NCBI GenBank assembly: GCA_038087875.1
Contig: CM075995.1
Coordinates: 10,480,001 to 10,544,000, forward strand
DNA from: Malacoraja senta
Lineage: Eukaryota
Length of the DNA stretch: 64,000 nucleotides
Direction: 5' to 3'
The position numbers and the translations under genes are program-made. Positions 2,130 to 52,885 of this stretch are shown here, piece by piece. The notes under the pieces were generated by a model. That model was not told where the DNA came from. It did not search any database and saw only the letters and a program-made list of their open reading frames with translations. Each line of letters begins with the position of its first letter. The stretch's first letter is position 1.

Positions 2130-2260
2130 GTGAACGAACTGCAGATGAAGGTTTCAACCGAAGATAGACACAAGAAGGTGGCGTAACTCAGCCGATCGGA
2201 GAGTAACACTATAGAAAAGGAATAGCAGACGTTTCGGGTCGAGACCCTCCTTCAGCGTAT
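2130..2260 (-). mobile_element. Penelope-like pseudo-LTR fragment with degenerate hammerhead motif (2228-2255)
   Basis: Reverse complement reads CTGAAGG-A-GGGTCTCGACCC-GAAAC-GTC; flanks match the other pLTR copies in the window. Confidence 0.6.
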
Positions 2261-2490
2261 CAGTCTCCAGGGACGATGTCTGACCCGCAAGGCTACTTAT
2301 CTATCCGCAACCTCCGCTGTTCTGAACAGGAGCAAGAGGATACGATGCCGTCAATTGCCGCGGGAGCACCACATATCCCTGGAATGTTTCATCGGTGCAC
2401 CACCACAGGCCTACTATAACTTTTGACACGCTTCCTTATACGCACGATCGAGACAATGGCATCTTACCTTTACATACTCATCTTTTTTAG

Positions 2491-2651
2491 CTGTGGAGTC
2501 GTTGATTCTGTTTCTGGGACGACATTGACTTTCAATTGCGGTGGATTTGTCGGTCGATATGTGAACATCATCATCCCAGGCCCGGATCAAATCTTAACCC
2601 TGTGCGAGGTTGAGATATTTGGTTCAGAACTCCCGTACTTCCATGGAAAAG
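2491..2651 (+). CDS. F-type lectin domain 1, exon B (phase 2-1)
   Basis: Acceptor tttttAG and donor GTAGG. Translates CGVVDSVSGTTLTFNCGGFVGRYVNIIIPGPDQILTLCEVEIFG, the FTLD C-terminal GRYV..LCEVEV motif. Confidence 0.93.
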
Positions 2652-2887
2652 GTAGGCTGAACCCGCTGAGGCTCCGCCGCACAGCTTAGTTGAGCGAGTC
2701 TCCCGCTGATAATGTTTGAGATTAATAACATCACTGAAGACAAGTACCGGAATTCCCAACGCTCTGCTCTTTGCTATTCTCAATGTAATCGCCAGTCTTT
2801 CACCCTACATTTGTCCAAGCACGAGCCTGTCTACGAGTGCAATACATGAGAGAATCGCTGCACATGCCCACAGCCATTCAGTCCGAG

Positions 2888-3410
2888 ACATAGAAACATA
2901 GAAAATAGGTAGCTTATCCAGTCCTTTTATAATTGTATATGTTTCTATGAGATCCCCCTCATTTTTCTAAACTCCAGTGAATAGAAGCCTAGTCATTTCA
3001 ATCTTTCCTCATATGACAGTCCCGCCATCCCAGGGATCAATCTCGTGAACCTACAATGCACTGCCTCAGTCACAGGGATGTCCTTCCTCAAATTAGGAGA
3101 CCAAAACTGTACGCAATACTCCAGATGTAGTCTTACCAGAGCCCTATACAAGTGCAGAAGAACCTCTCCACTCCTATACTGAAATCATCTTGTTATGCAG
3201 GCCAACATTCCATTAGCTTTCTTCACTGCCTGCTGTACCTGCACGCCAACTTTCAGTGACCGGTGTACAAGGACACCCAGGTCTCGCTGTACCTCCCCCT
3301 TACCTAACTTAACCCCATTGAGTTAATAATCTGCCCCCTTGTTTTTGCCACCAAAGTGGATACCCTCACATTTATCTATATTTTACTGCAATTGCCACGC
3401 ATCTGCCACA
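2888..3410 (-). mobile_element. CR1 LINE 3' fragment with internal deletion
   Basis: (CATAGAAA)n tail plus sequence near-identical to the CR1 at 13240-13740. Confidence 0.85.
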
Positions 3411-4380
3411 CGACCTAATACGAATACGCGCCAGCCTCGCACCAACGAAATGCACACCTCATGAAACACACTTGAAGATTATCACCCTGCTATCAGATTA
3501 TTGAACGGTCCTCACTTGAAAAGTCGTGCAATCCCATTATTTTAACGCCTCTGTTCTGTGTTGGGTTATATTTTCCATAACCGTAAACCCATTACAATGT
3601 AACACCATACCATGAAATCTATTGATTTTTCAACTTGACCTGTTGCTTGATTTGATTAGATTTGATAGTAGAGACGAGGGCATTCACTACATCGCACTTC
3701 ACTTGAGCATAGTAAAGCAAAGCACGGTATCACATCCTAGTTGAGCGAGTCTCCAGCTGATAGTCTTCCTGGAGTCCAGAACCGACTTTCCCTCCACCCT
3801 ACCCTATTTCCATTCTTAGTTTAATCGTCTTTGACCCTCGCAAACATGATCCTGTATATGAGTGAAACCCCCGAGACACTCGGTGCACGCACCCTCATCC
3901 ATTCAGTCAGGAGACATTTTCCCAACATCCATTCAGTCCGGAGACATAAGCACCAGCCACGCAACAACAAATTGCACACCTACTGAAACACCCTAGTAGA
4001 ATATCTCCCCGCTACAGACCACTGAATGGTCCTCCTTTGAGTTGTTGTGCAATCCCGATCATTTAATCTGCCGCAGCGCGATTCTTGGACTTATTTTTTA
4101 TAACCGTAAACTATAATACTGTAACACCATGTTATGCAACCTATTGTTTTTTTTACTTTTCACTTTACCTGTTGCTCTTGTGCGAGGCTTCATAGAAATG
4201 ATGTGTGATATGATTTGAGTGGATAGTACAAACAAGGGTTTCCACTGCACCTCACTTCACGGCCATACTAAAGCAATACGATATCAATGAAATACATTGA
4301 TCCAAACCGTGATAGAAAGCCTAATCCGTCGGCATTAAATATCTCCCTTGCGGCTCAGTGAGGTTTTTCCCAACGAACAG

Positions 4381-4660
4381 AAAATGTGGCATTCGGAAAA
4401 CCGTCGACCCAGTCCAGCACGTATCGATGGGCAGGTGCTGCGCGAGCCAATGACGGTAACAGCGATACCGACTTCACGCATGGCTCATGCACACGCACAA
4501 GGAAATCCAAGAACCCTTGGTGGAGAGTCGATCTAATAGAGATCTTCAACGTGTCAGATGTACGAATCACCAACAGAGCAGACTGCTGCTCCGACCGGCT
4601 CCGTGGAGCGGAGATCCGTATCGGGAACTCACTGGCGAATGATGGCAATTCCAACGGGCT
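4381..4660 (+). CDS. F-type lectin domain 2, exon A
   Basis: Acceptor aacAG and donor GTGAGT; 280 bp. NVAFGKPSTQSS..ANDGN..SCTRT..PWWRVDL..NRADCCSDRLRGAEIRIG. Confidence 0.93.
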
Positions 4661-4933
4661 GTGAGTATTCAGAAGCAAACGCCGACTCTATTCAGCTGCG
4701 GTGTCTTATTTTGTAAGTTCCACTGTTGCTGGAGCAGGGACGACATAAGTGGGAAATAGAGTGAAGCTGCAGGTTATGACCGATCTAAATGCAGAAAGCT
4801 GAATCTGAGAACACGATCCAGATGCGAGTGAAAATTACATGGAGCCGCAGACCACTTATTCAGTGTCACGAGCTGCTGATGTACTTGCAGATGAATGGAG
4901 TACCTTCAAAACAACGAGATCAATACATTTGTA

Positions 4934-5060
4934 GACAAAAGTGCTGGAGAAACTCAGCGGGTGCAGCAGCATCTATGGAGCGAAGGAAATAGGTAACGTT
5001 TCGCGCCGAAACCCTTCTTCAAGTCCGCTGCAGTTATCTGCAGTTCTTTCTTAAACTCTT
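4934..5060. mobile_element. Short Penelope-pLTR-derived insertion with target-site duplication
   Basis: Flanked by caatacatttgta at 4921-4933 and 5061-5073. Contains a hammerhead-like motif on the minus strand (4995-5022, C3 to U). Confidence 0.7.
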
Positions 5061-5370
5061 CAATACATTTGTAATTGAAATTCATTCAAATTATGTAGTA
5101 TTGAGCAATCTGATTGCAGTAGCAATGTTCAACGATCAAGCAGTCCCTACCCAGACAAAGTTTCCTATGTATCCGGACCCTCTCCGTTCTTAGTTATTTT
5201 TTCAGGACAGAAGCAACTGGGCAGGATGCCTGAGGTAGCCGCAGGAGCCCCCTGCACCCAAGGAATATGTCTTCAGTTCACCAACGCAGGCCTATGATAA
5301 CTTTTGACACGCTTCCTCATCGGCATGACCGAAACAGTGGCGTCTCACCTTTAAACCTCATCTCTTTCAG

Positions 5371-5531
5371 CTGTGGAATCGTTGATTCCGTTTCTGTGAC
5401 GAAATTGATCTTCCATTGTGGTGGACTTGTCGGTCGATATGTGAACATCATCATCCCGGGCCAGAATAAAATATTTCACCTGTGCGAGGTTGAGATCTTC
5501 GGTACGGAACACTCGTCTTTATCTGGAACAG
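5371..5531 (+). CDS. F-type lectin domain 2, exon B
   Basis: Acceptor tttcAG and donor GTACG; 161 bp. CGIVDSVSVTKLIFHCGGLVGRYVNIIIPGQNKIFHLCEVEIFGTEHSSLSGT. Confidence 0.92.
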
Positions 5532-5574
5532 GTACGCTGAACTTCTTGCTGACGCTCTGGCTCTACACCGCATC

Positions 5575-8500: not shown

Positions 8501-9033
8501 CAGGTGCACAGTGGAGAGCATGCTGACTGGTTGCATCGTGGCTTGGTTCGGAAACTTGAGCGCCCTTGAGCGGAAAAGACTACAAAACGTGGTAAACACT
8601 ACCCAGTCCATCATCGGCTCTGACCTGCCGTCCATCGAGGGGATCTAACACAGTCGCTGCCTCATAAAGGCTGGCAGCTTCATCAAGGACCCACACCATC
8701 CGGGCCATACAGTCATCTCCCCACTACCTTCAGTAAGTAGGTACAGGAGCCTGAAGACTGCAACGACCAGGTTCAGGAACAGCTACTTCCCCACAGCCAT
8801 CAGGCTATTAAACTCGGCTCGGACAAAACTTTGAACATTAATAGCCAATAATCTGTTTATTTGCACTTTATCAGTTTAATTATTCATGTGTGTATATATT
8901 TATGCAATGATATATGGACACACTGATCTGTTCAGTATTCGTGCCTACTGTGTTCTGTTGTGCTAAAGCAAAGCAAGAATTTCCTTGTCCCATCAGGGAC
9001 ACATGACAATAAAACTCTCTTGAACTCTTGAAC
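5575..9033 (+). mobile_element. Near full-length Rex1/Babar-like LINE (APE + RT), degenerate
   Basis: FTESWL, CRPFYLPREFTSIILTAV, AGDFN, SDH endonuclease motifs and [17 protein letters not shown] motifs. 3' AATAAA plus (CTCTTGAA)n tail. The host intron resumes at 9034 (tcccgctgataa, matching 2701). Confidence 0.85.
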
Positions 9034-9324
9034 TCCCGCTGATAAAGTCTGAGGATAACTACCTTCCTGAAGCACAGTGCCGTCTTTCTCAACAACCATG
9101 CACTTTATCATTCTTATTTAAATTCCCTGTCTTGGACCCTCATGTTGTCTAAACATAATCCGGTCTATGAATGAAATCCCCGAGACACTCGGTGCACGCA
9201 CCGTCATCCATTCAGTCCGCAGACCTGAAGCAAATAAACACCAGCCACACAGCGACGAATTGCGCACCTATTGAAACACTTTTAAATCGTATCTGTCCGC
9301 CATCAGACTACCGAGCTCTTGAGT

Positions 9325-10800: not shown

Positions 10801-11133
10801 ATCCCCACCTTTTACCGTGCGTCAGTGCGCTTCTTGAACTTATTTTCTAAAGCCATAAAGATATAACGCTGTTACACTAAACGATCCTGTTACACTAAAC
10901 TCTATTCTACTTTACCTGTTGCCCTTATGTGCGGATTCACTGCACCGATGTATAGTATGATTTAATCGGTTAGTGCAAACAAGGGTTTCCACTGCGTCGC
11001 GGTTCAATTGAACGTAGCAATTCGAATATCAATTAAATGCACTTCAGATTCAAACCTTGATAGAAGGTTTAGATCCGTCGGCATCAAATATCATGGAATA
11101 ATGTGCGTCAGTCATATATTTCCCACCCAACAG

Positions 11134-11413
11134 CAATCGTTGCATTCGGACGACCGCCGACCCAGTCAAGCACGGATAAAGACAGAACTCCTGAACAAGC
11201 CATTGACGGGAACAGCGACAGCGACTTTAGGCATGGCTCATGCGCGCGCACCAGGAAATCCATGAACCCTTGGTGGAGAGTGGAACTAAAGGAAAGCTAC
11301 AGCGTGTCAGATGTAAAAATCACCAACAGAGCAGACTGCTGCTCGGAACAGCTCCAAGGAGCCGAAATCCGCATCGGGGACTCGCTGGAGAACGATGGCA
11401 ATTCCAACAGACT
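11134..11413 (+). CDS. F-type lectin domain 3, exon A
   Basis: Acceptor caacAG and donor GTAAGT; 280 bp. IVAFGRPPTQSS..AIDGN..SCART..PWWRVEL..NRADCCSEQLQGAEIRIG. Confidence 0.93.
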
Positions 11414-12376: not shown

Positions 12377-12434
12377 GTAGGCTCAACGCCCCGCTAAGGC
12401 TGTGATTGTAGACACTGAGGCATTCTCAGACATG

Positions 12435-19962: not shown

Positions 19963-21072
19963 GTAAGTAACGATCGAGACATGTTTCCTTTCTTAAATTC
20001 CTTTCATCAAAATGTCTCATCGATTATTCTGTACTTGATCTGTTGAGGTCATGAGTAGAAACTGCGAAGACGAGAGAGTGCAGTGATTGTGTGTTACACT
20101 GGAAGCAAGAGCGGTGTACAAATGATCAAGGAGTGAGGAATATCGAGTCCGATGTGCAGATCACTGATCCGGTCTCAGGAGTTACAAGCAGACGTCAGTA
20201 GCAGGAATATAACTTTCAATCAGCAAAATAAATTTGTAATTTGAAAATTAGTTTCTCCCAGTAACAAATATGCGCAGCCAACGCATAGTGGTAACAAATA
20301 TAGACAATATTAACTGCAGATCGATAACAAAAAAATGACTCAAAGTGCTGAAGTTACTCAGCGCAGCATCTTTGGAGTACGTGCCTAAAGTAATATCTCG
20401 ACGCTGCCTATCCATGTGCTTCAGACATGGAGGCTGACCCCTTCAGTTACTCCAGCATTTTACGTCATTTTTCGCGGTAACAACATTTTTGTATCGGCTA
20501 CATCTTGCAGAAATAGTCATGCCTTCGGACCAGGCGGAATGTAGCTGTGAATTCAGACGTCTGCTGTGGGTGGCTGCAGCCACAGTCCAGAGGCAACAAA
20601 GTATGGAGCAGAAAGTGAATAGATTACGTAACCATAACTTATCAAACGCCGTTAACAGTTTAGCGGCGTACGGACGTATGGAGTATAGATCAGTAAAGGA
20701 GAGGGACATGTGCTGTGCGCCGAACATGATCCAAATGCCTCTTGAACTTTACTACCGTATCTGCCTCTGCTACCACACCTGGTAGCTTGTTCCAGGCACC
20801 CACCACCACCTAAAAAAACGCGTACCCCGCACGTCTCCGTTAATCTTTGCTCCCAGAAAGATTCTGGCTCTCCACCGATCTATAGACCTCACCATTTTAC
20901 AAAATTATGTCAGGTCTCCCCTCAGCTTCCCTCGTTCCAGAGAAATCAGTGCAAGTCCTTCTAAGCACTCCAAGCATGGTCGGCCTCCTACACCAGAGTC
21001 ACAACAATTACGTTTGACATATTGTAGATGTTCATACATGATTTTCTCGCTGAAAAGTTTTATCTCTTACAG

Positions 21073-21233
21073 GTGTGGAATCATCCACTCCATTTCGAGA
21101 ACAAATGTAACTTTCACTTGTGACGGTCTGTCGGGTCGTTATGTGAATATCTTCCTGCCAGGAACAGAGAAAATCCTGACTCTGTGTGAGGTTAAGGTCT
21201 TTGGTTCAAAGGTGAATACAGAAGAAGAACCAG
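21073..21233 (+). CDS. F-type lectin domain 5, exon B
   Basis: Acceptor ttacAG and donor GTAGG; 161 bp. CGIIHSISRTNVTFTCDGLSGRYVNIFLPGTEKILTLCEVKVFG. Confidence 0.9.
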
Positions 21234-22900: not shown

Positions 22901-24035
22901 CTTCCACATGCAGCATAGATAGGAGAAAATTGGGTGTTGGGAAAACTTTTGCGGAAGCGCAGATATAATTCGGTGGAGGAATGTATTATACCCCTTGCCA
23001 ATAAGCAACATCAGAAGACAGTAGTCCTCCAGGGGCGTCAGAGACGCACGGGACTATAGACAACAGGAGCGGGACAATTCTGTCCTAGTGTCATTTTAAT
23101 GTTGTTCTAGTATCTGCCTCAACTACCTCCTCTGCCAGCTCAATCTCGCGCCTAAAAAATACTCAATGACTTGGCCTTCATAGGCATCTGTGGCAATGTA
23201 TTCCATAAAGTCACCACCATCTGACTGAAGAAATTCCTCCTCGTCGTCTTTCTAGAAGCTCGTCCTTTTATTCCGAGTCTATGGCATCTGTCCTAGAATC
23301 TCCCACTAGTGGAAACATGTTATCTCCACATTGATTATATCCAGGCCTTTGACTATTCATTAAGTTTTAATAAGGTCCCCCTCATCATTCTAAACTCAAG
23401 CGAGTACAGGCCCAATGTCGTATGTTAACCGAATTATCCTCTGGTTCATTCTCGTGTATCCAGATACGGCGAAAAGCTTTATTTGCAGCTATCCAGTAAA
23501 ATAATTCTACACGTGAACACAATGAAGCCACACACAAGTACCATAGGTACTACAAAAAGAAAAATATCTAAATACAGGAGTTTAGTGTCATAACGATACT
23601 GTTGCAGAGGAAATGCAGATAACAATAACTGCAAATGCTGCAATGAGGCAGGTTGGAATATCGGGACTACAGCCTAGGATATGGGAGGTCCGGTCAGTAG
23701 GCCGCCAATAGCGGGGAGCTAATCAAGAATCTGATGTACATGCGTCCAAGCTTTTGTATCTGCTGCCCCACGGAGAGAGCAGAAGAGGGAATGACCGGGT
23801 GTCGGTGGTCCGTGCTTATGTTGGCCATTTTCCCGAGCAGTGCAAAGTGTAGATGGAGTCGATGGAGGGGAGGCTGGTCTGTGTGACAGACTGGACTGCA
23901 TCCACCACGCTCTGCAAATGTTCGTGGTCTTGGGCAGAGATGTTCCCAAACCAAGCCGTGATGCATCACGATTGATAGACAAATTGCTGGAGTAATATAG
24001 CTGGCCAGGCAGCATCTCTGGAGAAAAGGAACAGG

Positions 24036-24400
24036 TCAAATCAAAATCAAATCAAAAACTTTATTTGCCATTTGTGCTTACACACATAGGAACTCTTGTG
24101 CGGTTGTTCAGAGAGTCAAGTCAAGTCAAGTTAAAAAGACACACAGAAAGACACATAATCTATAAACTATAAACACATATACTATGATATGTTATGAGGT
24201 GGGTCAGGACATCAGTTCATTTTGTTTTGGCCAAGAGTCTCACTGTGGCAGGGAAGAAGCTCTTGAAAAAGCGTGTTCTGTTTGTGGCGATGCTGTCCGC
24301 TCGTCTGTGCCTGAGGTTGTATGTGCAGTTATTGTGTTTGAGCAGGGAGTGAGCTGGATGTAGTGTGTCTTGTAGGTGATGTTTTGGGTAGGAACCATTC
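24036..24400 (-). mobile_element. Rex1-like LINE 3' end inserted into a Penelope pLTR remnant (23975-24545)
   Basis: HPAHSLL..RFFKSFFPATVRLL with a (TTTGA)n-type tail; pLTR halves lie on both sides. Confidence 0.6.
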
Positions 24401-26786
24401 TTCAACCCCCTGTCATAGAGTGTCTGAAGAACGTTTCCGCGCCAACCCGTCACTTATTCCTATTCTCCATAACTTCTCCCTGACCTGGTAATTGACTCCA
24501 GAATTTTGTGTCTATTCTTCGGTATAAACCAGCATCTGCAGTGCCTGCCTGCACACGCATCCCGATAGGATGCTTCCCACGGTGCGTCCGTCGGGGGTGT
24601 GGTAAGTTGATGAGATATGCCAAATTTCCTGTCTACGGATAAAATAGATGGTGGGTGTGGATCTGAGAAAATAAATCTCAGTCGCAGGAGGCATGTCGCT
24701 AGATCTGCAGCCACGAGGAAATGCAAAACGCAGCGCATAATAATTCCTCCCTTTGTATGAAACCGAGAAAGCGAGGAAATGTTCAGGACGATGCTCATTC
24801 CAAGGCAGTCGCTCCATAACCCAGCAGGTATCGGCTTTTCAAGCTTGCAGATGTTTCTGTAGCATCACAAAACCAACATCGTCGCCAGCAGTTATCATGT
24901 GTGACTTTAACCTACATTTCGATTGGGCCAACCGAACTGGTAGCAGAGCTGAGGAGGAGGATTTCCTGGAATGTTTATGCGACGGCTTTTTATACCAATG
25001 TGTAGAAGAACCGACTAGTGGGCAGGCCACCCTAGACTGGTTATTGTGTAATGAGGAATGATTAGTTAGCAATCTTGTTGTGCAAACCCCCTTGGTCAAC
25101 AGTGACCATAATATGGTGGAATTCTGCATTAGGATGGAAAATGACATGGTTAATTCAGAGACTACGGTCCTGAACTTAAAGAAAGGAAACTGTGAAGGAA
25201 TGAGACGTGAATTGGCTCGGATAGACTGACAAATTATACTTAAGGGGATTACGGGAGAGATGCAATGACAAAGTTTTAAATACCGAATGGATGAACTCCT
25301 AAGATTCATCATCCCTGTGTGGCGAACAAAATAGAACGGGGAGGGCGGCACAACCGTGGCTAATGAAGGAAATCAGGGCTAGTGTTAAATCCAAGCAAAA
25401 TACATGTAAATTGGCCAGAGGAAGCAGCAAATGGAGGTGGAAAAAGAGTACGAAAGAAAGCTTGCGGGGAATAAAAAAACTGAATAACAAAGCTTCTTAA
25501 GATATGTACAGTGGAAAAGATTAGCGAAGACAAATGTAGGACCCTTACAATGAGACATGTGAATTTATAATGGGAAACAAGGAAATGGCAGGACAGTTAA
25601 TCGAGTACTTTGCTTCTGTCTTCACTAAGGAAGACATAAACAATCTCCAAGAAACATTAGGGGACCGAGGATCCAGTGGGAGGGAGGAACTGAAGGGAAT
25701 CCACATCAGTCTGGAAATTGTGTTAGATAAAATGTTGGGACTGAAAGCAGATAAATCCCCGGGGCCTGGTGGTCTGCATCCCAGAGTACTTAAGGTGGTG
25801 GCCCTAGAAATCGTGGATGCAAGGTGATCATTGTCCAATGTTCTCTCGACCGTGGATCAGTTCATGTGGACTGGAGGGTAGGCAATGTAACTCCCTCTTT
25901 CAGAAAGGAGTGAGAGAGATAACGGGAAATTATAGACCAGTTAGCCTTACATTAGTAGTCGGGAAGATGCTTGAGTCGATTGTTCAAGATGTGTTGGCAG
26001 CGCATTTGAAAAGCAGTGGCAGGATCGGTCAAAGTGAGCATGGATTTATGAAGGGGAAATCATGTTTGACAAATCTTCTGGATTTTTTTGAGGGTGTAAC
26101 AAGTAGAATGGATAAGGGAGAACCAGAGAATGTGGTGTATCTAGACTTTCAAAAAGCCTTTGCCAAGGTCCCACACAAGGGATTAGTGTGCAAAATTAGA
26201 GCACATGGTATTGGGGGTAGGGTATTGACATGGATAGATAACCGGTTGGCAGGCAAGAAGCAAAGAGACGGAATTAACGGGTCTTTTTCAGAATGGCAGT
26301 CAGTGACTAGTGGGGTACCGCAAGGCTCGGTGCCGGGACCCCAGTTATTTACAATATATATATATTAACGATTTAGATTTAACATTTAAGGGAATCTCAA
26401 AGTTTGCAGATGACACAAAGCGGATGGTAGTGCGAGCTGCGATGAGGATGCTATGAGGCTGCAGGATGACTTGGATGGGTTGGGTGAGTGGGCAGATGCA
26501 TGACAGTTGCAGTATAATGTGGATAAATGTGAGGATATCCACTTTGGTGGCAAGAACAGGAAGGCACATTATTATCTGAATGACAGCACAAAATGCTGGA
26601 GTAACTCAGCGGGACAGGTAGTATCTCTGGAGAGAAATAATGTGTGACATTTCGGGCCGAATCCTTCTTGAGATCTGAATGGTGTCAGATTAGGAATAGG
26701 GTGGTGCAACGAGACCTGGATGTGCTTGTACATGAGTCACTGAAAGTAAGCATGCATGTACAGCAGGCAGTGAAGAAAGCTAATGG

Positions 26787-27446
26787 TCAAATCATCCCTT
26801 CCCACCCAAACCACCCCCTCCACAGGTACTGTCCCCTGCAACCGCAGGAGACGCATCACCTGTGCCATAACCTCCCCGCTCGACTCCATCCCATGACCCC
26901 GACAATCTTTCCAGGTGAGGTAGAGGTTCACGTGCACCTCCTCCAACCTCACCTACTTATCCGCTGTTCCAGGTGTCAACTTTTGAACGAGACCAAGCGC
27001 AGGCTCGGCGATCGTTTAGCTGAACACTTCCGCTCAGTCCGCCTTAACCTACATGATCTCCCAATTGCTCAGCTCTTTAACTCCCCCTCCCATTCCCAAT
27101 CTGACCGTTCCGTCCTGGACCTCTCCCATTGTCAGAGTGAGGCCCAGCGCAAATTGGAGGAACACCACCTGATATTTCTCTTGCGTAACTTACACACCGG
27201 CGGTATGAACATTGACTTCTCTAACTTCAATTAGCCCTCGCATTCCCTCTCTCTCCATCCCCCTTCTTCCCAGTTCTCCCACCAGTCTTACTGTCTCCGA
27301 CTATATTCTTTTCCTGTAGCGCTCACACCCCTGAAATCAGTCTGAAGAAGGGCCTCGACCCGAAATGTCACCCATTAATTTTCTCCAGAGATGCTGCCCG
27401 TCCCGCTGAGTTACTCCAACATTTTGTTTCTACCTTCGATATAAAC
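26787..27446 (+). mobile_element. Penelope-like element 3' part: GIY-YIG endonuclease plus pseudo-LTR
   Basis: IRCSRCQLL..ETKRRLGDRLAEH..PIAQLFNSPSHS..RKLEEHHLIF..GMNIDF is the PLE GIY-YIG C-terminus, followed by a pLTR with a hammerhead motif. Confidence 0.85.
27342..27369 (+). ncRNA. Minimal hammerhead ribozyme motif (PLE-associated)
   Basis: CTGAAGA-A-GGGCCTCGACCC-GAAAT-GTC. Confidence 0.6.
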
Positions 27447-28219
27447 TGACGTTGAGGAGCAGAGAGGTCCTATTGGAGTTACACAGGGCCCTGGTGAGAC
27501 CGCACCTGGAGTTTTGTGTGCAATTTTGGTCCCCTAATTTGTGGAAGGGCGTTATTACTATTGAGAGAGTGCAGCGTAGGTTCACCAGTTAATTCCCGGG
27601 AAGGCTTGACTGACATATGAAAGAATGAAAGAATGAAAGAATGAATGAATGAATGAATGAATGAATGAATGAATGAATGAATGAATGAGTTTATTGGCGA
27701 AGTATTCACATACAAGGAATTTGCCTGTTGATTCTATGATGAAAGAATGGTTCGACTGGGCGTGTATTCAGTGGAATTTAGGAGGCTGAGAGATGGTCAT
27801 ATAGAAACATATAAAGTTCATAAAGGATTGGCCGGGCTAGATGCAGGGAAAACGTTTCCGAGTTTGCGGGAGTCCAGAACCAGGGGTCAAAGGTTAAAAA
27901 TAAGGGGTAGGCCATTTAGGACTGAGATGAGGAAAAACTTCTTCATCCAGAGAGTTGTGAATCTGTGGAATTCTCTGCCACAGACGGTAGTGGAGGCCAA
28001 TTCACTGGATGTTTTCAAGAGAGAGTTAGATTTAGCTCGTAGGGCTAAATGAATCAAGGGATTTGGGGGAAAAGCAGGAACGAGGTACTGATATTAGATT
28101 ATCAGCTTTGATCAAATTGATGGCGGTGCTAACTCGAAGGGCCGAATGGCCTACTGTATTTTGTTCCTATGTTTCTATATTTCTATCATCTATCTGCTTT
28201 TGACTAGCTGACCAGTGGC

Positions 28220-29905: not shown

Positions 29906-30394
29906 TCGTATTTTTTATCTTGCATCGCGCTCATATCTCTATCGTCGCAATCATCACCATAAATAGCAGTGGCCCCTCACTGCAATTCTTTCACTGATGG
30001 TTCCTAGCTACCCCAGTTAATCTCGTAGGCTGTTCACGGGCAATCCCAGAAAATTAAGGATAACCTGAATAAGATACCAGTGTTGGTCAAAAGTTTAGTT
30101 TAGTTTACGTAATGTGACGTGTACCGAGGTGCAGTGAAAACCTTTTTTTGGCGTGCTATCCAACTAGAGAAAAGACTAGACATGATTACAATCAAGCCGT
30201 CCACAGCGTATTAAATGATAAAGGCAACAACGTTCAATGCAAGATACATTCCAGTAAAGTCCGATTAAATGGAGTCCGACGGTTTCCAATGAGGTAGATG
30301 GCAGCACAGGACTACCATAGTGTGTGGTCGGGTGACTATATTTGGCGTGTTTTCCCTTTTTAACCCTCAATGTACTTTTTTTTGCACCCGTTAG

Positions 30395-30674
30395 CAAACA
30401 TAGCTTTGTTTGGATCAGCGAAACAACCCAACATCGACCTCAATGCAAGTGCAGAACGAGCCATTGACGGGGACACCAACAGCAGCTTCGACCACGGCTC
30501 CTGTACGCAGACGAAGAGAATGGATGATCCTTGGTGGAGAGTCGACTTGAAAGGGGTGTACGCAGTGTCTGTGGTAAGAATCACCAACAGAGCAGACTGC
30601 TGCTCGAAACGACTCAGAGGGGCCGAGATCCGCGTCGGGAACTCGCTGAAGAACAATGGCAATTCCAACAGACT
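30395..30674 (+). CDS. F-type lectin domain 6, exon A
   Basis: Acceptor gttAG and donor GTAAGT; 280 bp. NIALFGSAKQ..AIDGD..SCTQT..DPWWRVDL..NRADCCSKRLRGAEIRVG. Confidence 0.92.
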
Positions 30675-31769
30675 GTAAGTAGTAATCGGGCAATGCATGC
30701 CTTCTGAAACTGTATTCATTAATACGTTGCATTATCTTTAATCTATGGAGAACATGAGTAAAAACTGCAGTTGCGAGAGATTGCAGCGGTTGCGTTTTAC
30801 AGTGGAATTTGGAGTGATGTACAACTGATCCAGTGGCGAGGAATATTGAGTCACATGTGCCGATCACTGATCCGGAGTTCCAAGCCGACCTCCGAGCTGG
30901 AATGTAACCTTGAAACAGCGAAACAAATTTGTAATTTAAGAATTACTATTACCCAGCAATATGTCGGCCCAGCTGTCGTTTAGCGATAACAAATCGGAGA
31001 CACAAGGGACTGCAGATTCTGGGTAACAAAAAAAGACAAAAAGTGCTGGATAACTCAACAGGCCCGACAGTACCTATGCAGAACTCCGGAAAATGTGTTT
31101 GAAGAGAGGTCTCGATCCAAAACGTTGCCGATCTGTGTTCTCCAGACGTGCTTGTTGAGATGCTCCAGCACTTTGCCTTTTTTTCACGGTAACATTTTGT
31201 ATCGCCAGAATCTTGCAAAATATTGAGTCCTGCCTTTGCAACAGGCGGAATGTACATGTGGATCCAGAACTCTGCTGTGATTGGCTACAGCTATAAACCA
31301 GAGGCAACGAAGGATAGACTTGGAAGTGAACAGATTACGTCGCCTCAACTTATCAAACGCCGCCAGCAGCTGAAAGCATGGAATATAAAACAGGACAGCA
31401 GAGTACAGACTCGGTGTGCCGAATATGGTGCCAAGTTAAACTAGTCTCCTCTGCCTGCACATGATGTATACCCTCATACACCCAATATCCATGTGTCGAT
31501 GAAAAAAACTGTTAAACTCCACTATCCTATCTGCTTCCACCACCAACCGCGGCAGCGTGTTCCAGACTCCCACCATCCTCTCGAATAAACTCGCACCGCA
31601 CATCTCCTTTCAACTTTACCCATCTGACCGTAAAGCTATCCCATCTAGTCTTTGGCATTTCTACCCTTGAAAAAAAAGGTTCAGGCTCTCTATCCTGTCT
31701 ATGGCTTTCATAATAGCATGCAGTTCTCTCAGATCTCCTCTCAGCCCCGACGCTCAGAGAAAACAAACC

Positions 31770-32929: not shown

Positions 32930-33539
32930 GTAGGGTCCCATCTCTGTCTACAGAGGGCCATGCTAAGTGACGAGGGATTAATTTGTCTAAGTAGCTTGAA
33001 ATGTAGATGGAATCGATGGTGGGAGTCTTGTCTCGCTGATGGACACATGCGGAACTCTTTGCAATATTTTGCTGTCTTGGCTAGAAGTGCTGCCAAACCG
33101 AACCCTGAGGCATCTCGATAGTACGCTTTCTATTGATACATTTAAAAGTGGCAGAGATATGGTAAATGTACTTGACCTTTTCCCTAGAGTGGGAGAATCA
33201 AGAACTAGTGGCCAGAGATTTAAGATGAGAGATGAAAGGTTTAACAGAAATGTGTGGGACAATATTTTCAGAGACGATGGTGGGTATATAGAGCTGGATG
33301 ACAGAATACATAGTTGGGGCAGGTACACTAATATTCAACGGGCATTTGGACAGGTACATGGATAGGAAGGTTCAGAGGAATGTGTTAAATGCGGTAAAAT
33401 GAGACCAGCTTACTGATACGACTATGACAATAGGATGGGCGTGGGGGTGAGGGGAGGGATATAACAACTGGAGGGACTCTGGGCGGTTGCGCGAGTAGCA
33501 CGGGAGCAGAGTTAAGTGGGCTGCGTGAAAAATGATCGT

Positions 33540-33900
33540 TTTACGCTTATACCACCGGAGTCGAGACTGCCTAAGCGGAAGATGAAGTGTAGTTCCTCTG
33601 GTGTCCGTCTGGTCTCAGACAGGCAGTGACGAAGGCATAGAGAGAGGGACGCTCTGGGAATAAGAAGGGAAATTCAAACGACAGGCAACAGGATCTTCAA
33701 AGTGGTCTTTGCAGCAGTATCTCCCAGCCTACAATTGGCTCGTCAATGTGTGGTTGGCCACCGAATGCAACGAGCTGGATTCTACACGCTTGGCGTTATT
33801 CTCCTCATCACCTGGAAGAGCTGTTTAGATCCCTGGGTGGGTGTGAGAGAGCAGCTGGAGGGACACGTCTTGCAAGCGCAGTCAGAGTTGGAGAGGATGT
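33540..33900 (-). mobile_element. Old degenerate Penelope GIY-YIG remnant
   Basis: The reverse complement of 33566-33599 encodes EELHFIFRLGSL, homologous to EEHHLIF in the 26.8 kb copy. Confidence 0.55.
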
Positions 33901-38686: not shown

Positions 38687-38789
38687 CCTCCCGGCCACCC
38701 AACCGCTGTTGCGTGACTATCATTTATTGTGGTTACCAAAGCGAGTAGGGAAGGAAATCGTCTCCAGATAATCAGCCCATATTAGAGTT

Positions 38790-38961
38790 TAAGGAGGAAC
38801 TTTAGATGCTGGAAAATCGAAGGTAGACAAAAATGCTGGAGTGACTCAGCGGGTGCAGAAGCATCTATGGAGTGAAGGAAGTAGGCAACACTATTGCCTA
38901 TTTCATTCGCTCCATAGATGCTGCTGCTCCCTCTGAGTTTCTCCAGCACTTTTGTCTACCT
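38790..38961. mobile_element. Hairpin-shaped Penelope-pLTR insertion with 15-bp target duplication
   Basis: Inverted arms of ~70 bp; gcccat(a/g)ttagagtt at 38775-38789 and 38962-38976. Confidence 0.75.
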
Positions 38962-39588: not shown

Positions 39589-39594
39589 AATAAA
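39589..39594 (+). promoter_or_regulatory. Candidate polyadenylation signal AATAAA of the lectin gene
   Basis: AATAAA lies ~150 bp downstream of the stop codon. Confidence 0.5.
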
Positions 39595-42890: not shown

Positions 42891-43149
42891 CCCCCCCCTT
42901 ACCCAGGATACAATACAAAGTACAATACAATACATGTACAATACAATACAATACATGTATCAATACATTGTACAATACAAACTGCTGGAAGAAATCAGCA
43001 GGGATCTGACTCCCAATCAGCTGCTCCCTCTTGTCCCCTTCCACCAATCAGCGGCTTCCTCAAGCCCACTTTATTTGAAATGCGAATGGGACGTTGGAAC
43101 GTTACAGATTTGGGCTCCTCCTCCAGCAACCGCTCCAACGGCTCCTGGG

Positions 43150-46100: not shown

Positions 46101-48290
46101 TCAGGTCCCAGATATTTATTTACCGTCATGCGTTTTAGGACGTCTGGCACCACCTGTGTTATAAACCGGACAATAACTATTGGATCGCATTACCTTTCCC
46201 GACCTTCCAAGTCTTTATGTAGAAACAAAGAACTGCAGATGCTAGTTTATAGTAAAGAAAGACACAAATTGCTGGCACACCTCAGCGGGTTAGGCAGCAT
46301 CTCTGAAATCTCTGGAGTCAAAGGAAGGGTCCCAACCTGAAATGCAGAGTTACTCCGGCCTTTATGTCAATCTATGGCATAACCCAGAAACTGCAGATCC
46401 AACTTATTTGATAGCACTCAAAAATCTCCGTCACTCTCCGAAACATCCTGCTCGCTTCTCATGGAATCCGAGAGTCGTAGAGAGGTACAGGCTGAAAACA
46501 GGCCCAAGGGCCCTCCTTTTCCATGCCGACCATGCCGATTTCATGGCTGTGATCAGAGGTGACATTACGGACGGTTTGTTTAGTGAGTTTAGGCTATATG
46601 GGTGGGGCTGGGGAACAAGAAAGGGATGATTACCTTGATCGGGGTATACTACAGACCCCCGAATAGTTAACGGGAATTAGAAGAACAAATGTGCCAGGTG
46701 AATGCAGCCATCTGCTGGTCAAATAAGGTTGTTGTCGCTGTAGTGGGGGATTATAACTTTCCCAATACAGACTGGAAAAATCATAGTGTGGTGGGTTTAA
46801 ATGGGGTGCAATTCCTCAAAAGTGTTCAAGAGAGTTTTCTTATGCAGTATGTAGAGGCCCCCACATGTGAGAGGGCAACGCTGGATCTAGTATTGGGGAA
46901 ATTGGGTAGGGCAAGTTAATGAAGTGTATGTGGAGGAGCTTTTCGGGATCAGTGATAACATTTCGATTAGGTTTAAGATGGTTACAGATTGGGACGGAGA
47001 GGGTCCACGTGTTAAAGCGCTCAACTGGGGTAACGCCAACTTTGAGGGTATGAAGTTATCGCTCAAGTTGACTGGAGCAGTTCATTTGAGGGTAAAAGAA
47101 CATCGGCCAAGTGGGATGTTTTTACAAGTGTGCTGAGGAAAGGTCAGGATATGTACGTCCCCGTTAGAGTGACGGGCAAAGCAGGCAACTGTAAGGAAGC
47201 TTGGCTGACGAGGGAAATTGAGGCTTTGGTCAAAATCAAGAAGGATGCATGGGACAGGTATAGGCAGCTGGGATCATTTGCATCCTTGGAGGAGCTTGGA
47301 GAACTAAGGAGTAAACTGAAAAAGGAGATAAGAAGGGCAAAAAGGGACCAGGAGATAGCTCTGGCGAGCAGATTTAAGGACAATCCCAAATTATTTTATA
47401 AATACTTATGAGGGGGAAAGGGTAACTAGAGATAGAGTGGGACCTCTCAGGAATCAAAGCCGTCACCTATGTGTGGACAGGTGTGTGGAGGAATTGTTGA
47501 TGGAATTTAATACAGAAAATTGCGAGGTGTTGCATTTTGGGATGTCGAATAAGGGCAGGACCAACAAAGTAAATGGCAGGCCTTTGAGTAGCATTGTAAA
47601 ACAGAAGGATCTAGGAGTACAGGTTCATGGTTCCTTGCAGGTCGAGTCGCAGGTAGATAAGGTGGTCAAAAAGGCTTTTGGCACTTCGGTCTTCATCAGT
47701 CAGTGGATGAGGGGAGATCTTATAAAGGTATACAAAATCATGAGAAGAACAGGTTGAGTAGATGCACAGAGTCTTTTGCTCAGAGTAGGGGAAACGAGGA
47801 CCAGAGGACATAGGTTCAAGGTGAAGGGGAAAAGATTTAATAGGAATCCGAAGGGTAACTTTTGCACACAAACTATGGTGGGTGTATGGAACAAGCTACC
47901 AGAAGAGGTAGTTGAGGCTAACTGTTTTTCCATTGTTTAAGAAACAGTTAGACAGGTGCATGGATAGTACTGGTTTGGAGGGATTTGGACCAAGCGCAGG
48001 CAAGTGGGAATAGGGTAGCTGGGACATTGTTGACCGGTGTGGGCAAGAGGGACTGAAGGACCTGTTTCCACACTGTATCACTTTATGATTCTATGACTCT
48101 ATTGAGTATTGAAGTTTGGAGGGCATGTTGCAGTTGTGTAAGACGTTGGTGAGACCGCAACTATAATATTTTGATCGGTTCTCAGAACCATGTTATAGGA
48201 GAGATATTGTCAAGCTTGAAAGGGTTCAGAAAAGAATTACGAGGATGTTGCCAGGCCTAGAGTGTGTGAGCTATAGGGAGAGGTTGAGTA
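43150..48290. mobile_element. Cluster of CR1 fragments in both orientations
   Basis: Multiple RT C-terminal ORFs and (CATAGAAA)n tails: 43150-44435 (+), 44440-46140 (-), 46530-48290 (+). Confidence 0.8.
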
Positions 48291-48927
48291 GGTAGACACC
48301 AAACTCTGGGGTAACAGGCAGCATCTTTGGAGAGTGACGTTTCCGATCTAGACCCTTCTTCAGACTGATGTCAGGGGACCGGCGGGACTGAGATAGAATG
48401 TAGTCGTGGACAGTAAGACTGGTGGGAGAACTGGGGGATGGGATGGAGAGAGACGGAATGCAAGGGCTGTTTGAAGCTGGAGGTCAATGTTCATATCACT
48501 GGAATGTAAACTGCCCAAGAGAAATATGAAGTGCTGTTCCTTGAATTTGCGCTGGGCCACAATCTGACAATGGAGGATGCCCAGAACAGAAAGATCAGAT
48601 TGGGAATGGGGGAATGGGAGGGGTAGTTAAACTGCTGAGCAACCGGGGGATCAGGTAGGTTAAGGCGGAGTGAGCGGAGGTGTTCGGCGAGCCAATCGAT
48701 GAGCCTGCACTTGGTTTCGTTGATGTACAGAAGTTGACACCTGGAAGAGCGGATACAGTTGATGTGGTTGCAGGAGGTGCAAGTGAACCTCTGGCTCACC
48801 TGAAAAGATTGTCGTGGTCCTTGGATGGAGTCGAGGGGGGAGGTAAAGGGACAGGTCTTGTTTCTCCTGCAGTTGCAGGGGGAAGAACCTGGGGAGGGCG
48901 TGGTTTGGGTGGGAAGGGACGAGTTGA
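48291..48927 (-). mobile_element. Penelope-like element 3' part: GIY-YIG plus pseudo-LTR (second copy)
   Basis: QRFTCTS..CIRSSRCQLLYINETKCRL..AEHLRS..RKFKEQHFIFLLGSL; hammerhead motif at 48336-48363. Confidence 0.85.
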
Positions 48928-49042
48928 CCTTCAGCTTTCTTCACTGCCTCCTGTACCCGCATGCCTACTTTCAGTGACTGATGTACAAGCACACCCAGTT
49001 CTCGTTGCACCTACCCTTTTCCTAATCTGACACCATTCAGAT

Positions 49043-49070
49043 CTGAAGAAGGGTCTTGACCCGAAACGTC
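49043..49070 (+). ncRNA. Minimal hammerhead ribozyme motif with intact core
   Basis: CTGAAGA-A-GGGT(CTTG)ACCC-GAAAC-GTC: complete catalytic core, perfect stem II, palindromic ACGT helix III and GUC cleavage triplet. Confidence 0.7.
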
Positions 49071-49655
49071 ACCCATTCCTTCCCTCCATAGATGCTACAT
49101 GTCCTGCTGAGTGGCTATTCAGATAATAATCTGCCTTCCTGTTGTTGCCACAAAAGAGGATAACCTCATATTTATTCACATTATACTGCAACTGCCATGC
49201 ACCTAACCTAACACATCCAAGACACCCTGCATCCTCACAGCATCTTCATCGCATCTCACACTGCCACCCAGCTTTGTATCATCCGCAAACTTGGAGATGT
49301 CACATGATATAAATTTGTTAATATATATTGTCAATAACTGAGGTGCCAGCACCGAGCCTTGCGGCACCTCCCTAGTCACTGCTTGTCATTCTGCCAACCA
49401 GCTCTCTATCCCTGTCAAAACCCTACCCCCTATATCATGTGCTCCAATTTTACACAATAATCTCTTGAGTGTGAGCTTGTCAAAGGCTTTTTGAAAGTCC
49501 AGAAACACCACATCCACTGGCTCTCCCTTATCCATTCTGATTGTTACATCCTCAAAAGAATCCAGAAGATTAATCAAGCATGATTTCCTTTTCATAAATC
49601 CATGCTGACTTTGGCCGATCCAGTCACTGCTTTCCAAATGCACTGCCATAACATC

Positions 49656-50668
49656 GGATTTGAATTTTAACAGCCATATAAAGACCATTACCAGATCTGC
49701 CTATTACCATCTAAAAAATATTGCAGGAATCAAGGGATTTCTGTCCAAAGAAGACACTGAAAAACTTGTTCATGCATATATTTTTAGTAGGTTAGATTAT
49801 TGTAATGGCATCTTTACAGGTCTCAATAAAAAATCAATTAAACATCTGCAGCTTATCCAAAATGTCGCTGCCAGAGTCTTGACCAACACCAAGAAAATGG
49901 ACCACATTACACCTGTCCTTAAATCTTTGCACTGGCTCCCTGTGTGTAAGAGGATAGATTTTAAAATTCTGTTACTGACCTACAAGGCACTGAATGGTCT
50001 AGGTCCAAAATACATATCTGACCTACTTGTTGTATATGAGGCGCCTAGACTCCTCAGGTCTTCAGGGACAGGTTTACTCTGTGTTCCTAGGGTCAGAACT
50101 AAAAAGGCTGAAGCAGCATTGGGTTTTTATGCTCCACACCTGTGGAACAAGCTCCCTGAACACCTGAGGTGTACACAGACTGTAAGCGCATTTAAATCAG
50201 GCCTTAAAACACTGTTGTGTTAAAGAAGGAACTGCAGATGCTGGAAAATCGAAGGTACACAAAAATGCTGGAGAAACTCAGCGGGTGCAGCAGCATCTAT
50301 GGAGCGAAGGAAATAGGTAACGTTTCGGGCCGAAACATTACCTATTTCCTTCGCTCCATAGATGCTGCTGCACCTGCTGAGTTTCTCCAGCATTTTTGTG
50401 TACCTTAAAACACTGTTGTTTACTATAGCTTTTCCATAACCTGACATGCAGGTAACCTTAACTGTCTCATTTAACCCTTTTATGTGCTTTTTAAAATTGT
50501 TTTATTGCTTCATTGACGTTGTTTTATTATTCATACATTTGTCGTATTGCTTATTTTGCAATTTTTAATTATTGACTATTTTATTTTTTCTTTCCTGTAA
50601 AGCACCTTGAATTGCTGTTTGCACGAATGGTGCTATACAAATAAATTTGCCTTGCCTTGCCTTGCCTT
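49656..50668 (+). mobile_element. L2-clade LINE 3' end
   Basis: Intact 187-aa ORF (AYYHLKNI..LVHAYIFSRLDYCN..LQLIQNVAAR..HITPVLKSLHWLPV..LWNKLP); 3' AATAAA plus (TTGCC)n tail. Confidence 0.88.
50219..50402. mobile_element. Hairpin-shaped Penelope-pLTR insertion in the L2
   Basis: Near-perfect inverted arms of ~75 bp; ccttaaaacactgttgt duplicated at 50202-50218 and 50403-50419. Confidence 0.8.
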
Positions 50669-52656
50669 AACAATCAACACAAGCATTTTCCTAACTTGCG
50701 ATATAAGGCTAACTGGTCTATAATTCCCCATTTTCTCTCTTCCTCCTTTCCTAAAAATTGAGTTCCATTGGCTACCCTCCCATCCACAGGAACTGATCCA
50801 GGGTCGAGAGAACATTGAAAAATGATCACCAATGCATCCACGATTTCTAGGGCCACCTCCTTGAGTACTCTGGGATGCAGACCATCATCGAAACATAGAA
50901 ACATAGAAAATAGGTGCAGGAGTAGGCCATTCGGCCCTTCGAGCCTGCACCGCCATTCAGTATGATCATGGCTGATAATCCAACTCAGTATACTGTACCT
51001 GCCTTCTCTCCATACCCCCTGATCCCTTTAGCCACAAGAGCCACATCTAACTCCCTCTTAAATATAGCCAATGAACTGGCCTCAACTACCTTCTGTGGCA
51101 GAGAGTTCCAGAGATTCACCACTCTCTGTGTGAAAAATGTTTTTCTCATCTCGGTCCTAAGGATTTCCCCTTTATCCATAAACTGTGACCCCTTGTCCTG
51201 GACTTCCACCAACATCGGGAACAATCTTCCTGCATCTAGCCTGTCCAACCCCTTAAGAATTTTGTAAGTTTCTATAAGATCCCCCCTCAATCTTCTAAAT
51301 TCTAGCGAGTACAAGCCAAGTCTACCCAGTCTTTCTTCATATGAAAGTCCTGACATCCCAGGAATCAGTCTGGCGAACCTTCTCTGTACTCCCTCTATGG
51401 CAAGAATGTCTTTCCTCAGATTCAGAGACCAAAGCTGTATGCAATACTCCAGGTGTGGTCTCACCAAGACCTTGTACAACTGCAGTAGAACTTCCCTGCT
51501 CCTATACTCAAATTCTTTTGCTATGAATGCTAACATACCATTCACTTTCTTCACTGCCTCCTGCACCTGCATGCCTACTTTCAATGACTGGTGTACCATG
51601 ACACCCAGGTCTCCTTGCATCTCCCATTTTCATAATCGGCTACCATTCAGATAATAGTCTGCTTTCCTGTTTTTGCCCCCAAAGTGGATAACCTCACATT
51701 TATCCACATTATACTGCATCTGCCATGCATTTGCCCACTCACCCAGCCTATCCAAGTCACCTTGCAGCCTCCTAGCGTCCTCCTCACAGCTAATACTGCC
51801 CCCCAGCTTCGTGTCATCCACAAACTTGGAGATGTTGCATTCAATTCCCTCGTCCAAATCATTAATATTTATTGTAAATAGCTGGAGTCCCAGCACTGAG
51901 CCTTGCGGTACCCCACTCGTCACTGCCTGCCATTCTGAAAAGGATCCGTTTACTCCTACTCTTTGCTTCCTGTTTGCCAGCCAGGTCTCTATCCACATCA
52001 ATACTGAACCCCCAATACAGTGTGCTTTAAGTTTGCATACTAATCCCTTATGTGGGACCTTGTCGAAAGCCTTCCGAAAATCCAGATATAACACATCCAC
52101 TGGTGCTCCCTTATCCACTCTACTAGTTACATCCTCGAAAAATTCTATAAGATTCGTCAGACATGATTTACCTTTCGTAAATCCATGCTGACTTTGTCCA
52201 ATGATTTCACCACTTTCCAAATGTGCTGCTCTCCCATCTTTAATAACAGACTCTAGCAGTTTCCCCACTACCGATGTTAGACTAACGTCTGTAAATCCCC
52301 GTTTTCTCTCTCCCTCCTTTTTTTAAAAGTGGGGTTACAATAGCTACCCTCCAATCCTCAGGAACTACTCCAGAATCTAAGGAGTTTTTAAAAATTATCA
52401 CTAATGCATCCACTATTTCTGGGGCTATTTTCTTAAGTACTCTGGGATGCAGCCTATCTGGCCCTGAGAATTTATCGGCCTTCAGGCCCTGGGGATTTAT
52501 TTGCCTTCAGTCCCAACAGTTTACCAACTGTTGATTGACAAATGTGGATTCCCTTCAGTTCCTCCCTCCCACTAGATCATCGGTCCCCTATTATTTCTGG
52601 GAGATTGTTTGTGTCTTCATTAGTGAAAACAGAAGCAAAGTACTTGTTTAACTGGT

Positions 52657-52885
52657 AGGTACACAAAAATGCTGGAGAAATTCAGCGGGTGCAGCAGCAT
52701 CTATGGAGCGAAGGAAACGGGTAACGTTTCGGGCCGAAACCCTTCTTCAGACTGATAGGGGGTGGGGAGAAGAAAGGAAAAAAGGAAAAAGGCGGAGGAG
52801 GAGCCCGAGGGCTGGGGGAGGGGAGGAGACAACCAGATGGCTGATGAAGGGGAGGGGACAGCAAGGGCTAGCAGAATCCTTACCC
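52657..52885 (-). mobile_element. Penelope pLTR insertion with 16-bp target duplication and intact hammerhead core (52723-52750)
   Basis: tacttgtttaactggt at 52641-52656 and 52886-52901. Reverse complement CTGAAGA-A-GGGT(TTCG)GCCC-GAAAC-GTT. Confidence 0.78.

What the first reader, a model, noticed from the sequence alone, without database searches (positions are those of the whole stretch)
2228..52750. At least seven minimal hammerhead-ribozyme motifs carried by Penelope-like pseudo-LTRs
Seen: the motif CTGAAGA-A-GGGt-nnnn-rCCC-GAAAC-GT(C/T) occurs at 49043-49070 (+) and 52723-52750 (-) with intact cores. Near-intact or decayed copies are at 48336-48363 (-), 27342-27369 (+), 2228-2255 (-), 4995-5022 (-) and 26646-26672 (-). 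Two sit directly downstream of GIY-YIG coding remnants. Known: PLE pLTRs encode minimal hammerheads with a palindromic helix III thought to act as dimers, and an extra A after A9 is tolerated in some natural hammerheads. Two variants exist (loop CTCG/CTTG with GUC, and loop TTCG with GUU). Caveat: only ~2 bp of helix I (GU/AC) is visible. The 27342 copy is sense to the lectin pre-mRNA.
Basis: partly seen in the sequence, partly recalled or inferred. Interest (0 to 1): 0.7.

Follow-up and report, generated by a model that had tools for sequence, protein, structure and literature searches.

The report
Decayed hammerheads of skate Penelope retroelement
The seven motifs are real minimal hammerhead-ribozyme sequences left at the ends of broken copies of a Penelope-like jumping gene, an arrangement known since 2014, and most copies here are too mutated or wrongly arranged to cut RNA.

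Summary
All seven motifs are at the stated places and are not chance (7 matches against 0 in each of 30 shuffles). They lie in the pseudo-LTR ends of a Neptune-type Penelope-like element (PLE) family in a probably skate or ray genome. Two follow a CX4CX2C-linker and GIY-YIG remnant by 106-110 nt. Two others are the inverted 5' arms of those same two insertions. Four of 12 loci have 14-17 bp target duplications. Look-alike motifs in 121 metagenome loci show helix I covarying over 3 bp. Core, extra base, helix II, ACGU palindrome and a 2-bp helix I all fit the 2014 min-HHR consensus. Only 52723 keeps core, helix II and a native helix I. It has U17, is solo and has no tandem partner. The intronic 27342 copy is mutated and predicted to pair with its own antisense arm. 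Across tens of thousands of contigs the catalytic G12 decays as fast as non-core CpGs, so inserted copies look neutral, while subfamily-level changes stay ribozyme-compatible. No sign of cleavage-defined ends was found. Verdict: correct catch, known kind, low interest.

The parts
52723..52750 (-). min-HHR motif, the only copy with intact core, 4-bp helix II, ACGU palindrome and native 2-bp helix I; U at position 17
52657..52885 (-). solo pLTR insertion in a CR1: last codons and stop (52870) of the PLE ORF, pyrimidine-rich spacer, HHR, short 3' end; 16-bp target duplication at 52641-52656 and 52886-52901
   Evidence: a loose end runs on into a GIY-YIG C-terminus (translated by eye)
26583..26672 (-). 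element A, inverted arm with decayed HHR (26646-26672, G5>C); 9-bp duplication at 26574-26582 and 26673-26681
26677..26786 (+). element A, about 110 bp of CR1 reverse-transcriptase DNA between the two arms
   Evidence: 81-84% identity to other CR1 copies in the window
26787..27234 (+). element A, broken PLE ORF end: CX4CX2C linker and GIY-YIG endonuclease remnant, stop at 27232
27235..27440 (+). element A, sense pLTR with HHR 27342-27369 (C15.2>U, 3-bp helix II, 2-bp helix I); in an intron of the F-type-lectin-like gene, sense strand
49036..49116 (+). element B, inverted arm with HHR 49043-49070 (core and helix II intact; helix I 1 bp because the upstream strand is CR1)
48929..49038 (-). element B, the same CR1 segment as in A (90.8% identity over 109 aligned nt)
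48470..48928 (-). element B, broken PLE linker and GIY-YIG remnant; best hit 69% to a Leucoraja erinacea protein
48286..48469 (-). element B, sense pLTR with HHR 48336-48363 (G10.1-C11.1 pair lost, 3-bp helix I)
4934..5059 (-). HHR 4995-5022 (C3>U, helix II broken) preceded by an inverted stub of the tail; 14-bp target duplication at 4920-4933 and 5060-5073
   Evidence: stub seen by eye
2124..2256 (-). older pLTR end with HHR 2228-2255 (A9>G) and the long tail; no target duplication found
50221..50402 (.). fold-back of two pLTR ends joined in the helix II loop; one arm carries the roughly 35-nt tail; 17-bp target duplication
38789..38961 (.). fold-back of two pLTR ends without the core; 15-bp target duplication with 1 mismatch
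31001..31183 (.). decayed fold-back with a core remnant at 31099(+)
24373..24547 (.). head-to-head decayed cores at about 24378(-) and 24423(+)
46218..46401 (.). decayed fold-back
20312..20476 (.). decayed fold-back
23968..24036 (-). pLTR 3' part whose homology starts at about the predicted cleavage site (a single case)

Best explanation
The motifs are minimal type I hammerheads belonging to the pseudo-LTR of a high-copy Neptune-type PLE family. In the active source element the RNA runs ORF end, stop, about 110 nt, hammerhead, about 65 nt, optional 35-nt tail (shown from the remnants). Helix III cannot close within one motif, so the ACGU palindromes of two motifs pair, and each core cuts the partner after GUC or GUU (inferred from published min-HHRs). 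With a 2-bp helix I this is probably slow and needs the element's protein (inferred from Anolis Poseidon). The copies in the window are 5'-truncated insertions. Reverse transcription started at the two tail-end sites and ran through the uncut hammerhead, often from both DNA ends, leaving solo or head-to-head arms between 14-17 bp target duplications (structure shown, mechanism inferred). After insertion they decay neutrally. At most one copy (52723) could still cut, and only in trans.
For: Linker and GIY-YIG remnants lie 106-110 nt upstream of two motifs, and a third motif has the matching stop and spacer. Full-length relatives carry RVT_1 and GIY-YIG matches, mostly below the Pfam cut-offs, and the CX2-5CxxC linker (6 of 6 checked), which marks Neptune and Nematis. 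L001 holds a 595-aa RT and GIY-YIG frame between inverted motifs, the layout of A and B. In 23 of 121 loci a GIY-YIG hit was found, and in 13 of these 23 (two are one contig) a sense motif follows 82-139 nt later. Helix I, which the search pattern left free, pairs in 25, 23 and 20 of 25 clusters at positions 1-3 (shuffle means 12.7, 11.2, 11.6) and at chance level beyond. Covariation score 0.403 against 0.131, 0 of 500 shuffles. In 48,821 and 29,362 contigs, the only changes at 5% or more inside the motif are CpG transitions, U17>C and A1.1>G, the last two compatible with a hammerhead; G12>A runs at 8.5% and 6.0% against 6-7% at non-core CpGs. The published consensus, 2-bp helix I cases, inverted partner motifs, tails and protein dependence match.
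Against: No cleavage was measured. None of the 24 listed loose ends (545 more hidden) marks a junction at the cut site, and none of 48 extra alignments in the metagenome loci starts there. The hammerhead dimer of 52723 scores -6.5 kcal/mol against -32.1 for the best dimer. Most related copies close helix I with U.G (73-96% of depth). No RT remnant or full-length copy is in the window, so the clade rests on the linker and endonuclease. The covariation comes from other animals' families, crudely clustered with some families split, and found with a pattern that fixed core and outer helix II.
Confidence: 0.85

Rival explanations
1. In this lineage the hammerhead is vestigial even in the source elements. 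It no longer cuts and persists as a structural signal for protein binding or for joining the two cDNA arms.
For: Helix I is 2 bp, mostly closed by U.G, with U17 dominant. Competing folds win in all four monomer folds, z -0.9 to +1.3. Junctions of several inverted copies fall in or beside the motif. Anolis hammerhead mutants still insert in vitro.
Against: No change outside CpG sites reaches 5% in the core, while flanks show 27-43% subfamily variants in X17 (alignment favours core-matching contigs). Published min-HHRs include 2-bp helix I forms. Relatives have dimer energy gaps as large (4.0-26.8 kcal/mol).
Confidence: 0.1
2. One or more copies are co-opted by the host, for example the sense copy at 27342 cutting the lectin pre-mRNA.
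For: 27342 lies sense in an intron between exons at 21062-21214 and 30379-30675.
Against: It has C15.2>U and a weakened helix II. 24 of its 28 nt pair with its own antisense arm in the predicted fold, duplex -136.8 kcal/mol. Genome-wide decay of the family looks neutral. Orthologous loci could not be examined.
Confidence: 0.02
3. The short copies are a tandem non-LTR retrozyme family that makes circular RNAs.
For: Retrozymes derive from pLTRs and were reported in one chondrichthyan genome.
Against: No tandem array contains the motif (23 arrays listed). Copies are solo or inverted with target duplications. Two 'goes back about 100' joints have only 1-3 contigs each.
Confidence: 0.03

Closest known systems
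Minimal hammerheads (min-HHR) of metazoan PLE pseudo-LTRs (Cervera and De la Pena 2014, PMC4209133), especially the Acropora digitifera Neptune motif
   Same: CUGANGA core with one extra base, G10.1-C11.1, 4-bp helix II, GAAA-CG-U-H with no loop 3, short helix I, position after the GIY-YIG ORF end, mostly solo copies, and opposite-strand partners 100-700 bp apart.
   Different: No cartilaginous fish is named in the Fig. S3 list or Table S1 that I read. Helix I here is 2 bp with U-A or U.G closing, against 3 bp in the Acropora motif; the published 2-bp cases close with Watson-Crick pairs.
Neptune clade of endonuclease-bearing PLEs (Craig et al. 2021, PMC8557442)
   Same: C-terminal GIY-YIG preceded by a CX2-5CxxC linker; inverted 5'-truncated arm; 30-40 bp tail on one end.
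   Different: Only broken ORF ends are present; no RT to place on a tree; Nematis is not formally excluded.
Poseidon PAc of Anolis carolinensis (Frangieh et al. 2024, PMC11167929)
   Same: Two 3' end points separated by the tail; hammerhead retained uncut in inserted copies; no sign of ends at the cut site.
   Different: Different clade without the linker; protein-assisted cleavage was shown there and is untested here.
Adineta vaga Penelope structures (Arkhipova et al. 2013, PMC3846280)
   Same: Inverted pLTRs with palindromic junctions, target duplications, insertion into non-LTR elements, unrelated DNA captured between pLTRs.
   Different: Target duplications here are longer (14-17 bp against 8-10), and the captured DNA is a CR1 piece seen twice.
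Non-LTR retrozymes (bioRxiv 10.64898/2026.07.22.740005)
   Same: pLTR-derived type I hammerhead repeats, reported in one chondrichthyan.
   Different: Defined by tandem units, which are absent here.

Membership tests
min-HHR (PLE type) | Core CUGANGA + extra base ... GAAA ... UH | tested here: met
   Intact at 49043, 52723, 48336 and 27342; single changes at 2228, 4995 and 26646; non-CpG core sites stay under 5% change.
min-HHR (PLE type) | Helix II closed by G10.1-C11.1 | tested here: met
   4 bp at 49043, 52723 and 2228; 3 bp at 27342; broken at 48336, 4995 and 26646. The fourth pair varies U-A and U.G within the window.
min-HHR (PLE type) | Palindromic positions 15-16 with no loop 3 | tested here: met
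   ACGU in 5 of 7, AUGU in 2 of 7.
min-HHR (PLE type) | Short helix I joining the 5' flank to the strand after the cut site | tested here: met
   2-3 bp where the native flank survives (52723, 27342, 48336); covariation at positions 1-3 in relatives. It sits at the low end of the published range.
min-HHR (PLE type) | Self-cleavage as a dimer | not testable with these tools
   No assay possible; only contigs, no raw RNA reads, were offered.
Rfam hammerhead families | Covariance-model match | tested here: not met
   No hammerhead among the 10 hits at E up to 10; not filed under an Rfam family.
EN+ Penelope-like element | C-terminal GIY-YIG endonuclease just upstream of the pLTR | tested here: met
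   Remnants match relatives with GIY-YIG hits at 37-68% identity; the remnants themselves gave no GIY-YIG Pfam hit.
EN+ Penelope-like element | Reverse transcriptase in the same ORF | tested here: inconclusive
   No RT remnant in the window; present in relatives L001, P0004, P0057, P0058, P0077.
EN+ Penelope-like element | Inverted pLTR, 30-40 bp tail, target duplication | tested here: met
   8 of 12 loci have two opposed arms; arms differ by about 35 nt; duplications of 14-17 bp at 4 of 12 loci.
Neptune clade | CX2-5CxxC linker before the endonuclease | tested here: met
   Decayed in both remnants; intact in the 6 relatives checked.
Neptune clade | RT phylogeny | not testable with these tools
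   No RT in the window and no genome held.
Non-LTR retrozyme | Two or more tandem units, each with a complete hammerhead | tested here: not met
   window only.

The most novel reading that the evidence does not exclude
This family marks the lower structural limit of a natural hammerhead: a 2-bp helix I closed mostly by U.G, U17, and an intermolecular 4-bp helix III, yet with a core conserved across subfamilies of a very high-copy element. It would then either cut only when clamped by the PLE protein, or have turned into a non-cutting signal that joins the two cDNA arms. The twice-seen CR1-PLE composite would be a mobile CR1 subfamily carrying a hammerhead silenced by its own antisense arm.
Probability: 0.12. 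Interest if true: 0.45.

Novelty: new member of a known kind. Interest (0 to 1): 0.17.

Why it matters
It matters little as a discovery: min-HHRs in PLE pseudo-LTRs, including Neptune elements and fishes, are in print. It adds a very abundant skate or ray family whose helix I is at the short extreme. That makes it a usable substrate for the open question of what these hammerheads do in the PLE cycle. The neutral decay of G12 argues against a host role for the dispersed copies.

Tried and rejected
Rfam scan: no hammerhead; the miRNA hits are the fold-backs at 50326 and 38890. Word-based protein search of longer relatives: none of 34 candidates passed. Viral contigs: 0 matches. Cleavage-defined 5' junctions: one window copy (23968-24036) fits, but 0 of 48 extra alignments in metagenome loci and none of the 24 listed loose ends support it. 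A junction hot spot 5-6 nt upstream of C3: the loose ends at 52755 and 52756 have consensus letters resembling the native upstream sequence of sister subfamilies, so they were not counted as junctions. Splicing completing helix I: a pyrimidine tract and AG lie just before the core, but the donor-like sites I inspected by eye give no better helix I, and one search lists no such joint; untested, not excluded. Lower depth over the core than downstream in the RNA-guess runs: contig depth cannot rank parts, so it was not used. Monomer folds are no more stable than shuffles. A and B as independent insertions: rejected as unlikely because both internal junctions coincide; duplication versus mobilisation as a unit remains open (78% identity over 1432 nt). 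Searches of earlier findings by place, sequence and words gave one other-genome note.
Full report
Observation. The seven motifs are at the stated coordinates and strands. A pattern taken from the finding gives 7 matches at up to 2 substitutions and none in any of 30 shuffles. The window is repeat-rich animal DNA with CR1 fragments, a 47-bp satellite and a gene with seven pairs of F5/8-type C (F-type-lectin-like) exons on the + strand from 581 to 39408. The best protein hit of the endonuclease remnant is a Leucoraja erinacea protein at 69% identity, followed by Hypanus and Heptranchias. The host is therefore probably a skate or ray; this is inference, and no genome was held.

Anatomy. The motif is part of a pLTR end of about 100-135 nt. 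A profile from 13 stretches found 21 hits, forming 12 loci after one weak hit was dropped. Eight loci have two opposed arms. In the best-kept fold-backs one arm carries an extra 35 nt or so, the PLE tail. Four loci have 14-17 bp target duplications. Elements A (26583-27440) and B (48286-49116) each consist of an inverted arm, about 110 bp of CR1, a broken linker and GIY-YIG frame, and 106-110 nt later the sense motif. So four of the seven motifs belong to two insertions. A and B share both internal junctions and a collinear CR1 flank at 78% identity over 1432 nt, which points to one event later copied. The 52723 copy starts at the last codons of the ORF. In run X17 a loose end there continues into a frame that reads, by eye, like the GIY-YIG C-terminus.

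State of each motif. 52723 has core, 4-bp helix II and a 2-bp helix I, with U17. 49043 has core and helix II, but its upstream strand is CR1, leaving 1 bp. The other five each carry a damaging change. In predicted folds of + strand RNA, 24 of 28 nt of 27342 and 25 of 28 nt of 49043 pair with their own antisense arms. Same-strand motifs are at least 2.3 kb apart, so no cis dimer of the tandem type is available in the window.

Relatives. The 77 distinct motifs fell into 25 crude clusters, some of them split families. Helix I pairs in 25, 23, 20, 9 and 9 of 25 clusters at positions 1-5, against shuffle means of 12.7, 11.2, 11.6, 9.0 and 7.7. On 20 rows (6 window copies, 14 loci that I picked as representatives) the covariation score was 0.403 against 0.131, with no shuffle of 500 and no slid register reaching it. 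Twenty-three loci have a GIY-YIG hit, and 13 of these a sense motif 82-139 nt downstream. L001 has an RT and GIY-YIG frame between inverted motifs.

The family itself. Contigs of four public runs were laid on 52630-52900 at 80% likeness: 48,821 and 29,362 from two large runs of unrecorded kind, probably DNA, and 271 and 821 from two runs guessed to be RNA. Within the motif and helix I the only changes at 5% or more were CpG transitions, U17>C (9-25%) and A1.1>G (73-96%). G12>A was 8.5% and 6.0% in the large runs, against 6.2-6.9% at a downstream CpG. Inserted copies thus appear to decay neutrally, while lineage-level changes stay hammerhead-compatible. These shares are summed contig depths, not copy counts; the alignment favours core-matching contigs; and the runs may come from other species than the window. 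No listed loose end marks the cut site (24 shown, 545 hidden).

Mechanism. Shown: position in the pLTR, inverted and tailed insertions, decay. Inferred from published work: dimer cleavage through the ACGU palindrome, low intrinsic activity, help from the element's protein, and reverse transcription of uncut RNA from two start sites. The dimer fold of 52723 scores -6.5 kcal/mol, at the weak end of 16 relatives (-6.1 to -23.3), and 25.6 above the best competing dimer. A vestigial role in this lineage therefore stays open.

Literature seen. PMC4209133: main text parts 1-2 of 4, supplement PDF parts 1-2 of 3 and a term search. It describes min-HHRs in Xena, Poseidon and Neptune PLEs of fishes, the extra base, opposite-strand pairs and 2-bp helix I cases; its list names no cartilaginous fish. 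PMC11167929: parts 1-2 of 4. bioRxiv 10.64898/2026.07.22.740005: part 1 of 5 and passages; its supplements were not seen and may name this family. PMC8557442, PMC3846280 and PMC6765202: passages. Lunse, Weinberg and Breaker (RNA Biol 14:1499) was seen only as a title in a reference list and may cover sharks or skates. Five paper searches showed no paper on this skate family; Repbase and Dfam were not available, so absence from print is not established. Hammerhead numbering and the tolerance of position 17 are from general knowledge.

Verdict. A correct observation and a correct identification of a known kind. It is a new member of the min-HHR and Neptune-type PLE class, with mostly dead copies here. 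Interest 0.17.

Noticed in passing
26300-27450 and 48286-49655: The same CR1-PLE composite occurs twice in opposite orientation with identical internal junctions but different right flanks; it may be a mobile composite or an old duplication.
   Followed up: partly
33524-33889 (-): A third, older linker and GIY-YIG remnant with no pLTR or hammerhead found downstream.
   Followed up: partly
P0001, P0003: Skate and shark gene models fuse a host domain (DUF4518; RTP-like zinc ribbon) to this PLE's GIY-YIG end; either exonisation or annotation artefacts.
   Followed up: no
581-39408 (+): A gene with seven tandem F-type-lectin-like domains, each split over two exons.
   Followed up: partly
54645-62573: A 48-bp repeat of 11 copies and a 47-bp satellite of 149 copies.
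   Followed up: no
52751-52800 (-), 27300-27341 (+): A pyrimidine tract and AG end one base before the core, and the same bases read as an initiator-like TCAGT (consensus recalled); either could set the RNA's 5' context.
   Followed up: partly
50221-50402: A near-perfect 180-nt hairpin centred in the helix II loop scores as plant miRNA families below gathering score; a likely source of double-stranded RNA.
   Followed up: no
49609-50669: A fragment that looks like the end of an L2-type LINE interrupts the CR1 flank of element B (family label recalled, not tested).
   Followed up: no
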